Notes: generated from the sequence alone by a model not told the origin. DNA of 33,226 nt from Bacteroidota bacterium (GCA_020629895.1 JAHDCM010000001.1:5217-38442); one strand, 5' to 3'. Counted from the stretch's first letter, positions 3,035-29,871 are shown. A program made the numbers and translations.

Positions 3035-3202
3035 CTCAGGAATGATGAAAAAATAAATTTACAATTATTTGGGTAGATTATTTTTGTTCCTGGCAAGGCA
3101 GAAAACGTAGCCATAGCCAAAGCTACGGCGAGGCTTTCTAACACAGCTAGGGACAAAAAGAAGCAGTCAAAATTGTAAATTTATTTCGTCTTCATTCCTC
3201 AG
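3035..3202 (+). repeat. Family-A structured repeat, copy A1 (long imperfect hairpin with conserved asymmetric apex)
   Basis: Outer arms ctcaggaatgatgaaaaaataaatttacaatt (3035-3066) and aattgtaaatttatttcgtcttcattcctcag (3171-3202) pair at 27 of 32 positions. Inner stem 3081-3094 pairs with 3146-3159. The apex carries GGCGAGGCTTTCTAAC (3127-3142), shared with copies at 26502-26736 and 29590-29751. Starts 23 nt after the sdhB stop. Confidence 0.8.
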
Positions 3203-3225: not shown

Positions 3226-3438
3226 TGGGCGTGTCCCCATTTTGTTGAAAAAGATGCCGCCAGCGTCTCGCTGGTAGCATCTTTTTCAACAAAATGGGGT
3301 CGGGCTATCCGCTTGTAGTTGCCTCGTAGAAAAGGTGTTTGGCTATTTTTGCTGGCAGTGTCTTCCTTCGTCAGCCCTGCCAGCAAAAGCCGCTCTACCT
3401 TTCTACTTCACCAAGCTACCGCTACTATCCCTCACGCA
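3226..3438 (-). repeat. Family-B structured repeat, copy B1 (candidate ncRNA or MITE-like element)
   Basis: The reverse complement aligns block-for-block with 7001-7218, 21920-22162(rc) and 29405-29558. Shared blocks: GCGTGAGGGATAGTAGYGGTAGCTTG ... stem-GGCTGACGAAGGAAGACA-stem ... CAACTACAARCGRATAGCCCGAC ... variable hairpin ... CACGCCC. The 12-bp stem 3347-3358/3377-3388 encloses the invariant loop (3359-3376). A near-perfect 65-nt hairpin lies at 3235-3299. Confidence 0.85.
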
Positions 3439-3489
3439 AGTCACACATCCTACACACAATAGTATCTAGCATTTAATCGTTGCAATTTA

Positions 3490-7000: not shown

Positions 7001-7218
7001 GCGTGAGGGATAGTAGTGGTAGCTTGATGAAGTAGAAATATAACTGAGGCTTCCCTTAGCAGGGCTGACGAAGGAAGACACTGCTAGGGGATGTAGCCGA
7101 ATATATTTTCTACGAAGCAACTACAAACGAATAGCCCGACGTGTATAAAAAAAGCGCAATCATAGCGGCAACAAAATACTGCCACTATGATTGCGCTTTT
7201 TTTATACACGGCACGCCC
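7001..7218 (+). repeat. Family-B structured repeat, copy B2
   Basis: Same blocks as B1. Terminal pairing GCGTG (7001-7005) with CACGC (7212-7216). Invariant loop at 7063-7080. The variable slot holds an unrelated 30-bp hairpin, 7141-7170 pairing with 7180-7209, with one C.A mismatch. Confidence 0.85.
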
Positions 7219-21919: not shown

Positions 21920-22162
21920 TGGGCGTGTCCTTCCATAGCTCTTTCGGGAACTGGAGAAATCTGTACAGACGCAAATCTTGCGTCTCTACCGAATCCTCCA
22001 GTCCCTCAATCCCTATTTCAGGTCGGGCTATCCGCTTGTAGTTGTCTCGTAGAAAAGGTGTTCGGCTAAAAGTCCTAGCAGTGTCTTCCTTCGTCAGCCC
22101 TGCTAGTCCAAGCCTCACGAACCTGTCTACTTCGCCAAGCTACCGCTACTATCCCTCACGCA
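21920..22162 (-). repeat. Family-B structured repeat, copy B3
   Basis: The reverse complement carries all family-B blocks. Loop at 22082-22099, flanked by the 7-bp stem ctagcag/ctgctag. The variable slot holds a ~93-nt branched hairpin unrelated to those in the other copies. Confidence 0.85.
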
Positions 22163-23964: not shown

Positions 23965-24046
23965 AGTAAAGATGAAAAAATAGATTGATTAAGTATTGTC
24001 AACAAAGAGATAGCTAGATTGATCAATTTGTTCTCTCCTCTTTATT
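23965..24046 (+). repeat. degenerate or truncated Family-A element (A4, arms only, apex missing)
   Basis: Left arm agtaaagatgaaaaaatagattgattaagtattg closely matches the A3 left arm (29590-). Right arm cagctagattgatcaatttgttctctcctctttatt matches the A3 right arm (..gcagctagattgggcaatttattctttcctctttact). The GGCGAGGCTTT apex is absent. Confidence 0.55.
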
Positions 24047-24314
24047 AGAGTTAAAACCTTTATCAAAATAGAGAAAGTCAATATCAAAAGTATTGATCCT
24101 AATTTGTTCCCTGTTTTATAAGAGAAAATGGCTTTTCCAACAAAATCAACTTGACTGACTAGTAAGTAGTAGTTGAAATTAAAAGTCCAGTACTTTTGAG
24201 AGACAATTAGTCCTGACACATAATGTCAATCTCAAAATCCTGAGCAATAATTCAACTATTACCTAACATGTCTAATCGTTGTCTTATTTTAAATAGCTTA
24301 ATCAATAATTAAAA

Positions 24315-26501: not shown

Positions 26502-26736
26502 CCTAGGAATGATAATTAAATAACGTTACAATTTTTTGGATAGATTATTTTTGTGCCTAATGAGGTATAAACGAGCGATAAAATGCAATAGCATTTTTGA
26601 ATGTCCAGTGGACATTCAAGCGTAGTGAACCGCTTGCGGATGTCTAGCTGCAGCGTATCGGCGAGGCTTTCTAACAAAATTAGGTGCAAAAAGAAGCAGT
26701 CAAAAATGTAAAGTTATTTAACCTTTGTTCTCTAAC
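26502..26736 (+). repeat. Family-A structured repeat, copy A2 (carries an extra ~85-nt multi-hairpin insertion in the apex)
   Basis: Starts 5 nt after the rpoA stop. Shares TAGATTATTTTTGT and ACAAAAAGAAGCAGTCAAAA-type segments and the apex GGCGAGGCTTTCTAAC (26660-26675) with A1. Inner stem 26548-26561 pairs with 26679-26692. Extra perfect hairpins at 26580-26597 and 26598-26618. Confidence 0.8.
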
Positions 26737-29352: not shown

Positions 29353-29404
29353 GTAATGGGGACAAGTTATTCTTTAGCCATTCATTACATAGCATAAATA
29401 AATC

Positions 29405-29558
29405 GCGCAAGGGATAGTAGTGGTAGCTTGACGAAATAGCTGCTTTTGTGAAGCAAAAACTAGCGGGGCTGACGAAGGAAGACACCGCTAGGATTATGCT
29501 GAACTAGCAGCTATGAGACAACTACAAACGGATAGCCCGACCCAACGGGTTGCGCCCC
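29405..29558 (+). repeat. Family-B structured repeat, copy B4 (minimal version)
   Basis: Carries all conserved blocks and the invariant loop (29467-29484). Terminal pairing is changed to GCGCAA (29405-29410) with TTGCGC (29550-29555), the second helix to ATAGCTGC/GCAGCTAT, and the loop-closing stem to CTAGCGG/CCGCTAG. The variable hairpin slot is almost empty. Confidence 0.85.
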
Positions 29559-29589
29559 AAAATAAATTTAAATGCATTGGCATTTTATT

Positions 29590-29751
29590 AGTAAAGATGA
29601 AAAAATAAATTGATCAAATATTGCTAGACTATTTGCTAATAAGACAAGGCGAAAAACGTAGGCATAGCCGTAGGCTCTGGCGAGGCTTTTCAACGTAGTA
29701 TTGTTAGCAAAAAGGCAGCTAGATTGGGCAATTTATTCTTTCCTCTTTACT
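29590..29751 (+). repeat. Family-A structured repeat, copy A3
   Basis: Arms agtaaagatgaaaaaataaattgatc... / ...aatttattctttcctctttact. Inner stem 29632-29642 pairs with 29701-29711 with one U.G. Apex AAACGTAGGCATAGCC...GGCGAGGCTTTTCAAC (29679-29694). Confidence 0.8.
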
Positions 29752-29871
29752 TAAAAGAAAGGAAAATCAAATAGTTGTGTAGCCTTCTTGCTTTATTGAG
29801 AAGAACAGATATTCGGTTTTACCATAAATAAAGTTTAATAACAAATACTTAACTAGAGATTAATAGCTTAC

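What the first reader, a model, noticed from the sequence alone, without database searches (positions are those of the whole stretch)
3035..3202. Family A: long hairpin repeat with a conserved asymmetric apex, always on the coding strand, with + strand-only G.U pairs (definition and copy A1)
**Copies.** Three full copies (3035-3202, 26502-26736, 29590-29751) and one truncated copy (23965-24046).

**Shared parts.**
- AT-rich outer arms: (GGAATGATG/AGTAAAGATG)AAAAAATAAATT... and their complements.
- Conserved internal segments: TAGATTATTTTTGT on the left, ACAAAAAGAAGCAGTCAAAA on the right.
- An asymmetric apex: AAACGTAG[C/G]CATAGCC ... GGCGAGGCTTT[C/T][T/C]AAC.

**Inner stem.** It differs in sequence between copies but stays paired, using G.U or U.G pairs that are valid only if the + strand is RNA.
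- A1, 3081-3094 with 3146-3159: two such pairs.
- A2, 26548-26561 with 26679-26692: two.
- A3, 29632-29642 with 29701-29711: one.
- No A.C mismatches occur in these inner stems.

**Placement.** The apex is on the + strand, co-oriented with the genes, in all three informative copies. Copies begin 5-26 nt after a stop codon (sdhB, rpoA, rpsM).

**Interpretation.** This resembles REP/BIME-, BOX- or RUP-like elements that act on mRNA 3' ends (stability, termination, processing). The sequence is not one I recognise.
Basis: partly seen in the sequence, partly recalled or inferred. Interest (0 to 1): 0.62.

Follow-up and report, generated by a model that had tools for sequence, protein, structure and literature searches.

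The report
Hairpin mini-transposon with Correia-like conserved tip
The repeat is a small non-coding jumping element (a MITE) that duplicates 3 bases (TTA/TAA) where it lands; it is ordinary in kind, but its hairpin tip is a conserved folded module also found in mini-transposons of distant bacteria, including the Correia elements of Neisseria.

Summary
The four copies are real. They belong to a repeat superfamily with about 105 loci in this 3.37-Mb Saprospiraceae-type MAG.

**What it is.** They are MITEs.
- They are 148-171 nt long, with terminal inverted repeats G[TG]AA[ATC]G[AG]T..AAAAAATAA.
- 39 of 44 full copies have an identical 3-nt flank on each side (chance about 2%); 34 of these are TTA or TAA.
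- Some copies are 96-98% identical.
- The orthologous sites in a same-genus genome lack the elements.

- The inner stems with G.U pairs check out base by base.
- "Always on the coding strand" is a window artefact. Genome-wide the split is 27 same to 23 opposite; adding other genomes gives about 60:40.

**The tip.** Its layout is P0 - [AAGGC/AACGNN] - 5-bp P1 - [ACGYAG/YGAGGC] - variable hairpin.
- The stems covary strongly.
- The unpaired loops are almost invariant across arm families and across phyla: Bacteroidota, Burkholderiales and Lujinxingia isolates.
- A covariance model built only from these tips hits short Correia elements of Neisseria-like genomes (35 bits, E 6e-8).
- The tip is not needed for jumping, because a 67-nt tip-less derivative has spread.
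- Wobble statistics mildly favour folding on the AAGGC strand.

No match was found in Rfam or in the paper library. No partner transposase was found.

The parts
3039..3198 (+). A1: full MITE copy (GGAATGATG arm family), 160 nt, flanked by TCA at 3036-3038 and 3199-3201
3083..3157 (+). A1 apical module. P0 is 3083-3094 with 3146-3157. J1 is AAGGC 3095-3099 opposite AACACA 3140-3145. P1 is AGAAA 3100-3104 with TTTCT 3135-3139. J2 is ACGTAG 3105-3110 opposite CGAGGC 3129-3134. The variable hairpin is 3111-3128.
   Evidence: sequence; structure and covariation
26506..26731 (+). A2: full copy of the same arm family with about 70 nt inserted in the tip hairpin. The right end is degenerate. It is flanked by CTA at 26503-26505 and 26732-26734 and begins 8 nt after the rpoA stop. 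It is absent at the same site in the same-genus genome G001.
29591..29750 (+). A3: full copy (GTAAAGATG arm family), 160 nt, flanked by TTA at 29588-29590 and 29751-29753, in the nusA-infB spacer. Copies 96-98% identical lie on other contigs.
29642..29716 (+). A3 apical module: AAGGCGAAAAACGTAGGC - hairpin - GGCGAGGCTTTTCAACGTAG, with 12-bp P0 on each side
23966..24045 (+). A4: internal-deletion derivative of the GTAAAGATG family without the tip, 80 nt, 26 nt after the rpsM stop. The G001 spacer lacks it.

Best explanation
**Shown.**
- They are non-coding hairpin-shaped DNA of about 160 nt, moved in trans by a cut-and-paste (DDE-type) transposase that makes a 3-bp staggered cut at TNA. That target is the signature of IS5-superfamily (IS1031/IS427-like) and Harbinger-like enzymes.
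- Several arm subfamilies coexist in this genome. They recombine with one another at the sequence they share.
- The shared sequence is the hairpin tip, a conserved folded module: P0 stem - internal loop AAGGC/AACGNN - 5-bp stem - internal loop ACGYAG/YGAGGC - variable hairpin.
- Related tips occur on other transposon chassis in distant bacteria, and a relative is found in the Neisseria Correia element.

**Inferred.**
- The module is a fold-dependent recognition site. It is read in single-stranded form, mainly on the strand carrying AAGGC, most likely as RNA when the element is co-transcribed inside operons, as known for Correia (RNase III) and ERIC (RNase E).
- It probably binds a widely conserved factor through its two purine-rich loops.
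- It is not part of the transposition machinery proper, because tip-less derivatives have jumped.
- It may help full-length elements to persist, for example by making insertions in operons tolerable.
For: **MITE status.**
- About 105 nhmmer loci, 49 of them full length.
- 39 of 44 full copies have identical 3-nt flanks against 2% by chance; 34 are TTA or TAA.
- Some copies are 96-98% identical.
- A2, A3 and A4 are absent from the orthologous spacers in same-genus G001.
- Three copies sit exactly on a TAA stop codon.

**Recombination at the shared core.** The arm chimeras C35, C124, C98 and C27 are the copies whose flanks differ between the two sides.

**Fold of the tip.**
- 88.8% of cells are paired, against 63% in shuffles and about 42% when partners are slid.
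- 22 of 24 pairs show changes on both sides.
- The covariation score is 0.652 against 0.18.
- P1 shows A-T, G-C, C-G and T-A exchanges.

**Strand preference.**
- Near the tip there are 158 G.U against 29 A.C pairs.
- Unique changes within subfamilies: 31 WC>GU against 16 WC>AC (p 0.04), with no transition bias at unpaired sites.
- The AAGGC strand folds better in 35 of 49 copies.

**Breadth.**
- 9 of 41 relatives carry the motif.
- Named isolates of Phaeodactylibacter, Vandammella, Hydrogenophaga, Herbaspirillum and Lujinxingia carry it.
- 46 of 201 Burkholderiales genomes and 5 of 301 Bacteroidota genomes are hit by model R1.

**Link to Correia.** R1 hits the 107-bp Correia elements over its full length at 35.4 bits, E 6e-8.

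**Tip dispensable for jumping.** At least 7 near-identical 67-nt tip-less copies lie at different loci. Six have matching 3-nt flanks of their own; one has tta/taa.
Against: - No autonomous insertion sequence with matching ends was found in this MAG (68% complete), in Vandammella or in Hydrogenophaga. The IS5-type assignment therefore rests on the TNA duplication alone.
- Orientation relative to genes is close to random, which weakens an RNA-only role for the tip.
- Over the whole element in this genome, the number of G.U pairs is the same on both strands, 168 and 168. The asymmetry is local and modest.
- G.T wobbles also stabilise single-stranded DNA, so RNA and ssDNA are not distinguished.
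- No transcript data could be consulted.
Confidence: 0.72

Rival explanations
1. One reading: a host-selected, strand-specific RNA element of the REP/BIME/BOX type. It would sit after genes on the coding strand and control mRNA 3'-end stability, termination or processing.
For: - Three window copies start 8-26 nt after stop codons.
- G.U exceeds A.C on the + strand.
- The AAGGC strand folds about 5 kcal/mol better on average.
- There is a weak overall co-orientation with genes, about 60%.
Against: - Orientation between co-directional genes is 18:8 in this genome and 15:13 elsewhere. Copies with one callable flank give 9:15.
- Copies also lie in divergent and convergent spacers.
- The elements have terminal inverted repeats and target duplications, and they have spread recently.
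- No T-run follows the hairpin.
- Nearness to a stop codon follows from a TTA/TAA target in AT-rich spacers.
Confidence: 0.12
2. The tip module is the real mobile or replicating unit. An unidentified enzyme would recognise the folded tip as single-stranded DNA or a cruciform and move whatever hairpin carries it. This would explain why no partner insertion sequence is found and why the tip tops unrelated chassis.
For: - The unpaired loops are near-invariant across arm families and phyla.
- No autonomous partner was found in any genome examined.
- The mobilising mechanism of Correia elements is still reported as undetermined (PMC2649163).
- The two loops carry the same words (RAGGC and AACGYAG) in a near-dyad arrangement about P1, which would suit a dimeric protein.
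Against: - Tip-less 67-nt, 46-nt and 37-nt derivatives, and 39-nt minis that are only the two ends, have spread; six of the seven 67-nt copies have matching flanks of their own.
- The duplicated triplet varies between copies, as expected for a staggered DDE cut.
- Target duplications differ between chassis: TNA here and TA in Correia. This points to different enzymes acting on the ends.
Confidence: 0.1
3. REP/RAYT system: the conserved GTAG followed by a hairpin at the tip is a GTAG-tagged REP handled by a Y1 (RAYT) transposase.
For: The tip reads ACGTAG-(N)C-hairpin, which resembles the GTAG head of REPs (PMC3733652).
Against: - No Y1_Tnp match in this genome or in Vandammella, although both carry the motif.
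- No tip motif next to Y1 genes in four other carriers.
- The G of GTAG varies: CGCAG, CACAG and CCGCAG occur.
- REPs have no target duplication.
Confidence: 0.03
4. No function: the tip is conserved only because all these families share a recent common ancestor spread by horizontal transfer.
For: The distribution is patchy: 5 of 301 Bacteroidota, 9 of 41 relatives and 46 of 201 Burkholderiales. This fits horizontal spread.
Against: - The arms have diverged beyond alignment while keeping their pairing. The unpaired loop letters, which neutral drift should change first, stay fixed from 39%-GC Bacteroidota to high-GC Burkholderiales genomes.
- The variable hairpin and P1 show many compensated changes.
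Confidence: 0.05

Closest known systems
Correia elements (CREE / NEMIS) of Neisseria
   Same: - Both are roughly 105-160-bp non-coding hairpin MITEs, abundant and intergenic, with no cognate transposase identified (PMC2649163).
- The inner motifs come in the same order: stem - AAGGC - ACGNAG - hairpin - RAGGC - AACGNN - stem.
- Model R1, built without any Neisseria sequence, aligns over its full length to 107-bp Correia copies at 35.4 bits, E 6e-8.
- Long and short forms differ by an insertion in the tip region, as A2 differs from A1.
   Different: - The terminal repeats differ: TATAGTGGATTAA... against G[TG]AA.G.T..AAAAAATAA.
- Correia duplicates TA (from the literature); these elements duplicate 3 bp, TNA.
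- The covarying 5-bp P1 is degenerate in Correia.
- The host phylum differs.
- The IHF site, the promoters and the RNase III cleavage known for Correia were not tested here.
IS5-superfamily-derived MITEs (IS1031/IS427-type, 3-bp TNA duplication) and eukaryotic PIF/Harbinger MITEs
   Same: A 3-bp TTA/TAA target duplication, short terminal inverted repeats, non-coding, high copy number, and internal-deletion derivatives.
   Different: - No parent insertion sequence with these ends was found.
- The element is complementary along its whole length, not only at its ends.
- It carries a conserved tip module that ordinary deletion derivatives of an insertion sequence would not have.
ERIC / IRU of enterobacteria
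   Same: A hairpin MITE-like repeat of about 127 bp, transcribed with neighbouring genes. The words AAGGCG and AACGCAG occur in the E. coli copy.
   Different: Model R1 does not match the E. coli ERIC copy: best 6.5 bits, E 8.3. The architecture of the centre differs. The duplication is TA according to the literature.
REP / BIME with RAYT transposases
   Same: Short conserved palindromes with a GTAG-like head, able to act as RNA or single-stranded DNA hairpins.
   Different: REPs are 20-40 nt, lack terminal inverted repeats and target duplications, and go with RAYT genes. None of this holds here.

Membership tests
Bacterial MITE | Small (under 300 bp) and non-coding | tested here: met
   148-171 nt (226 nt for A2). 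No ORF of 60 aa or more lies within the copies.
Bacterial MITE | Terminal inverted repeats | tested here: met
   GTAAAGATG...CATCTTTAC, GGAATGATG...CATCATTCC and GTAACGGTT...AACCGTTAC.
Bacterial MITE | Direct target-site duplication that varies between copies | tested here: met
   39 of 44 copies have identical 3-nt flanks (chance 0.02): TTA 19, TAA 15, others 5.
Bacterial MITE | Dispersed multi-copy family with presence/absence differences between related genomes | tested here: met
   About 105 loci. The orthologous spacers in G001 lack A2, A3 and A4.
Bacterial MITE | Autonomous partner insertion sequence with the same ends | tested here: inconclusive
   None found in G000 (68% complete), Vandammella or Hydrogenophaga. 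ISfinder was not available.
IS5-superfamily (IS1031/IS427-type) MITE | 3-bp TNA duplication | tested here: met
   36 of 39 duplications fit TNA.
IS5-superfamily (IS1031/IS427-type) MITE | Ends match those of a known IS5-family insertion sequence or transposase present in the genome | tested here: inconclusive
   There is no DUF4096 (PF13340) match in G000 or Vandammella. The DUF4096 insertion sequence of P. xiamenensis has other ends (GAAGTTGTCTAAAAA).
Correia element (CREE/NEMIS) | Correia terminal repeat TATAGTGGATTAA... | tested here: not met
   Absent from Family A. It is present only in three Neisseria-like genomes of 201.
Correia element (CREE/NEMIS) | TA target duplication | tested here: not met
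   The duplication here is 3 bp.
Correia element (CREE/NEMIS) | Directional conserved core | tested here: met
   R1 aligns over its full length to 107-bp Correia copies, 35.4 bits, E 6e-8. The AAGGC, ACGAAG, CAAGGC and AACGCC words come in the same order.
REP/BIME-RAYT | RAYT (Y1) gene in the genome, flanked by the repeats | tested here: not met
   PF01797 is absent in G000 and G041. No tip motif lies next to Y1 genes in L136-L139.
REP/BIME-RAYT | No target duplication; 20-40-nt unit | tested here: not met
   160-nt unit with a duplication.
ERIC/IRU | Sequence and fold of the ERIC centre | tested here: not met
   The best R1 match on the E. coli ERIC locus L135 is 6.5 bits, E 8.3.
Any Rfam 15 family | Match at or near the gathering score | tested here: not met
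   No match at gathering thresholds. At E up to 10 only generic long-hairpin or snoRNA-like noise appears.
Intrinsic terminator | GC-rich stem followed by a T-run | tested here: not met
   No terminator-like site at A2-A4. No T-run follows A1.

The most novel reading that the evidence does not exclude
The tip would be an undescribed, widely spread structured nucleic-acid module: two purine-rich internal loops, AAGGC/AACGNN and ACGYAG/YGAGGC, on either side of a covarying 5-bp helix, capped by a free hairpin. It would be read on one strand by a conserved, probably dimeric, protein. It would unite the Neisseria Correia elements with hairpin MITEs of Bacteroidota, Burkholderiales and other phyla into one superfamily. 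Finding its partner would name the long-missing factor that processes or mobilises Correia-type elements.
Probability: 0.3. Interest if true: 0.8.

Novelty: new variant of a known kind. Interest (0 to 1): 0.55.

Why it matters
**As a repeat.** This is one more MITE family, and it explains the unusually long spacers inside the ribosomal-protein, rpoA and nusA-infB operons of this organism.

**Beyond that.**
- The unpaired letters of the hairpin tip are better conserved than the transposon ends.
- The tip sits on unrelated chassis with different target duplications.
- It recurs from 39%-GC Bacteroidota to high-GC Burkholderiales.
- It matches the core of Correia elements, whose mobilisation has been unexplained since 1988.
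- Neither Rfam 15, the 2024 MITE review (PMC10969869) nor the sequence and word searches of the paper library describe this shared module.

**If the module binds a conserved factor,** it offers a handle on how such elements are tolerated inside essential operons. It would also give a simple testable RNA or ssDNA motif.

**Genome rearrangement.** The shared tip acts as portable homology. Chimeric copies with discordant flanks show that copies recombine there.

Tried and rejected
- **Rfam.** Gathering thresholds on the whole window and E up to 10 on two copies gave nothing relevant.
- **Ribozyme readings by eye.** A hammerhead-like CUGANGA/GAAA occurs in a few copies only. The A6 and U4 positions are not conserved, so this was rejected.
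- **REP/RAYT.** Rejected.
- **ERIC homology.** Shared words only; no model match.
- **Partner insertion sequence.**
  - End pairs 0.3-4 kb apart in G000 enclose ordinary genes.
  - The DUF4096 insertion sequence of Phaeodactylibacter has other ends and a non-TNA duplication.
  - Unpaired ends in Vandammella and Hydrogenophaga are solo ends or 39-nt minis.
- **Paper searches.** Searches by sequence strings and for 'Correia-like' returned only unrelated hits, such as U1 snRNA.
- **Viral contigs.** Five hits are one phage coding region without hairpin context, so a chance match.
- **Strict pattern in complete Burkholderiales genomes.** It found nothing because their loops vary (GAGGC/TAGGC, CCGCAG/CGAGGA). 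The planned test of orientation against replication direction was dropped.
- **Promoter and terminator scan.** No enrichment.
- **Caveat on taxon names.** The AT-rich copies in the 'Halioglobus' MAG carry Saprospiraceae-type ends, and the 'Eubacteriales' MAG copies may also be binning contamination. The cross-phylum claim rests on isolates.

Full report
**1.

The four stretches are as described. The refined borders, set by the terminal repeats, are:
- A1: 3039-3198
- A2: 26506-26731
- A3: 29591-29750
- A4: 23966-24045, an internal-deletion copy without the tip

3081-3094 with 3146-3159 gives 14 bp with two wobbles. 29632-29642 with 29701-29711 gives 11 bp with one wobble. Neither has an A.C mismatch.

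A1 folds far better than shuffled sequence on both strands: -60.8 kcal/mol (z -9.3) on + and -57.7 kcal/mol (z -9.1) on -.

**2. It is a transposon family, not a window curiosity**

The window lies in a 445-contig, 3.37-Mb, 39%-GC assembly. Loci of other genomes that carry the same tip motif bear Saprospiraceae names.

An iterated nhmmer search finds about 105 loci, 49 of them full length (148-171 nt). Many contig ends fall inside copies. Some copies are 96-98% identical.

The full copies end in inverted repeats of one pattern: GTAAAGATG, GGAATGATG, GTAACGGTT or GTAATGGTT, followed by AAAAAATAA. 39 of 44 are flanked by the same three bases on both sides, against 2% expected by chance. The triplets are TTA 19, TAA 15 and others 5.

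The triplet differs from copy to copy. It is therefore a real target duplication of the TNA kind. By established knowledge that is the mark of IS5-superfamily (IS1031/IS427-type) and Harbinger-type DDE transposases.

In the same-genus genome G001 the orthologous spacers lack the elements. For example, the rpoA-rplQ spacer is about 35 nt there, against 292 nt here. Three copies sit exactly on the TAA stop codon of the upstream gene.

Shorter derivatives exist. The 67-nt tip-less form occurs in at least seven near-identical copies at different loci. Six have matching flanks of their own (taa, tta, tga, ttt); the seventh has tta/taa.

**3. Orientation**

A crude ORF-based gene call covers 86% of the genome. 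Between co-directional genes, the tip motif is on the gene strand in 18 cases and opposite in 8. Copies with only one callable neighbour give 9 and 15.

In 8-kb loci from other low-GC carriers the figures are 15:13 and 27:11. Overall about 60% are co-oriented.

**4. The tip**

Copies with unalignable arms share a core. Its layout is:
- P0 stem, ending in C
- J1: AAGGC on the 5' side, AACGNN on the 3' side
- P1: 5 bp, RNNAA with TTNNY
- J2: ACGYAG(N) on the 5' side, (R)YGAGGC on the 3' side
- P2: a hairpin of free sequence and length, from a few nt up to the large insert of A2

On a 37-sequence alignment from many genomes (A1), the pair counts are as follows:
- 88.8% of cells are paired, against 63% in shuffles and about 42% when partners are slid.
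- 22 of 24 pairs show changes on both sides.
- The covariation score is 0.652 against 0.18.

P1 alone shows A-T/G-C at one pair and A-T/C-G/T-A/G-C at the next. The letters of J1 and J2 are almost invariant.

J1 and J2 are made of the same two words (RAGGC and AACGYAG), placed in a near-dyad about P1. Each can be drawn as A.G / G-C / G.A. This drawing is inference and was not probed.

**5. Which strand folds**

- In 146 distinct tips, the ten P0 pairs nearest the tip hold 158 G.U and 29 A.C. P1 holds 15 and 4.
- Inside this genome's subfamilies, pairs predicted on both strands were counted with each change scored once. 31 Watson-Crick pairs became G.U and 16 became A.C (p 0.04). Transitions at unpaired sites are balanced (raw counts 44:19).
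- The AAGGC strand is more stable in 35 of 49 copies, with a mean of -50.7 against -45.7 kcal/mol. The total number of G.U pairs over whole elements is equal on the two strands, 168 and 168.

So there is a real but modest preference for folding on the AAGGC strand, concentrated near the tip. It fits RNA or single-stranded DNA equally.

**6. Distribution**

- The strict motif occurs in 9 of 41 relatives, covering 8 genera and a second family.
- In the species collection it occurs in many Saprospiraceae/Lewinellaceae MAGs. It also occurs in isolates of Phaeodactylibacter xiamenensis, Vandammella animalimorsus, Hydrogenophaga, Herbaspirillum and Lujinxingia vulgaris. In every copy read in context (22 loci), it sits at the top of a long hairpin. 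Several of those hairpins have their own ends, such as GAGCCTGTTCAAAG or GGGCCTGTTCAC, and a TNA-type flank.
- A covariance model of the tip (R1) hits 5 of 301 Bacteroidota genomes and 46 of 201 Burkholderiales genomes.
- Variants keep the plan but change loop letters. J1 can be GAGGC or TAGGC. ACGCAG/CGAGGC becomes CCGCAG/CGAGGA, so the A.C next to P1 swaps to C.A. One Bacteroidota lineage keeps only J1.

**7. Link to Correia elements**

Three genomes of the Burkholderiales sample carry hundreds of Correia terminal repeats. Their 107-bp elements read CAGGAC-AAGGC-G-ACGAAG-CCG...CGG-CAAGGC-GAGGC-AACGCC-GTACTG.

R1 was built without them. It aligns to them over its whole length at 35.4 bits, E 6e-8.

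Correia elements differ in three ways: their ends, a TA duplication (from the literature), and a degenerate P1.

The literature held here reports them as binding IHF and RNase III, as carrying promoters, and as having no determined mobilising mechanism (PMC2649163; PMC10969869).

The E. coli ERIC copy shares a few words but is not matched.

**8. What was excluded**

- Rfam 15 has no such family.
- REP/RAYT is excluded. There is no Y1 transposase in this genome or in Vandammella, and no tips beside Y1 genes elsewhere.
- It is not a terminator.
- No partner insertion sequence was found in any genome examined.
- IMG/VR holds only a chance match.
- Paper searches by sequence and by name found no description of a shared tip.

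**9. Reading**

*Shown:* Family A is a MITE superfamily with a TNA duplication, recent mobility and several arm lineages.
- The lineages recombine at the shared tip. The chimeras C35, C124, C98 and C27 are the copies with discordant flanks.
- The tip is a conserved fold related to the Correia core.
- The tip is not needed for transposition itself.

*Inferred:* the tip is a recognition module read in single-stranded form, most likely as RNA in co-transcribed copies. This is by analogy with RNase III on Correia and RNase E on ERIC. It probably helps full-length elements to persist.

*Unknown:* the partner protein and the transposase.

**10. Earlier notes of this scan**

Notes e1-914158, e1-5078211 and e1-1426015 report hairpin MITE superfamilies with a shared tip in other genomes. 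One of them names Correia as the nearest known element. I treated them as leads.

The Correia link and the multi-chassis claim were tested here and hold. An ERIC link (e1-2191311) was not borne out for this tip.

Noticed in passing
window 3297-3452 (+), 22019-22162 (+), 7001-7143 (-), 29390-29543 (-): A second dispersed repeat ('family B', about 145-155 nt, GGGTCGGGCTATCCGCTTGTAGTTG...CGCGTGAGGGATAGTAGTGGTAGCTTG). It has 80-95% identity between copies. Twice it lies next to a Family A copy (after sdhB and in the nusA-infB spacer). It also occurs on other contigs (C69, C80, C174, C346, C433).
   Followed up: partly
window 3235-3299 and 7140-7210: Two near-perfect palindromes with 31-nt arms (94% and 97% complementary, loops of 3 and 9 nt), directly beside family B copies.
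   Followed up: no
genome contigs C35:12006-12176, C124:5587-5746, C98:6291-6447, C27:3169-3338: Copies whose 3-nt flanks differ between the two sides (TAA/TTA). In C35, C124 and C98 the left and right arms visibly come from different subfamilies, joined at the shared tip; C27 has both arms of one family. This is the signature of recombination between copies at different loci.
   Followed up: partly
genome contigs C246:5214, C399:3143, C35:12006: Three elements are inserted exactly on the TAA stop codon of the upstream ORF, so the duplicated triplet serves as the stop.
   Followed up: partly
G041 (Vandammella) C16:242220-242951: Five matches to the tip model on one strand at about 165-nt spacing. 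This looks like a head-to-tail array of the element.
   Followed up: no
L157-L159, L166, L172 (Burkholderiales loci): A loop variant in which ACGCAG/CGAGGC becomes CCGCAG/CGAGGA. The A.C opposition next to P1 is swapped to C.A, which suggests a specific non-canonical pair.
   Followed up: no
L173, L174, L181 (Hydrogenophaga and relative); genome contigs C202:1825-1861, C8:4249-4294: Mini-elements of 37-46 nt that consist of the two terminal repeats only, with TNA-type flanks.
   Followed up: no
L022, L053, L085 ('Halioglobus sp.' MAG): AT-rich contigs whose element ends (GGAATGATG...) match the Saprospiraceae families. This is probably binning contamination and not a gammaproteobacterial host.
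   Followed up: no
window 24046-24314: The rpsM-rpsK spacer is about 375 nt here against about 45 nt in same-genus G001. Beyond A4 it holds about 270 nt of further unexplained sequence.
   Followed up: no
L146 (G001 C236, nusA-infB spacer): G001 carries its own 40-nt mini-element (TAA-GTAATGGTTGCTAAATAATTTCCTAATTTATAGCCATTAC-TTA) where G000 has B4 plus A3.
   Followed up: no
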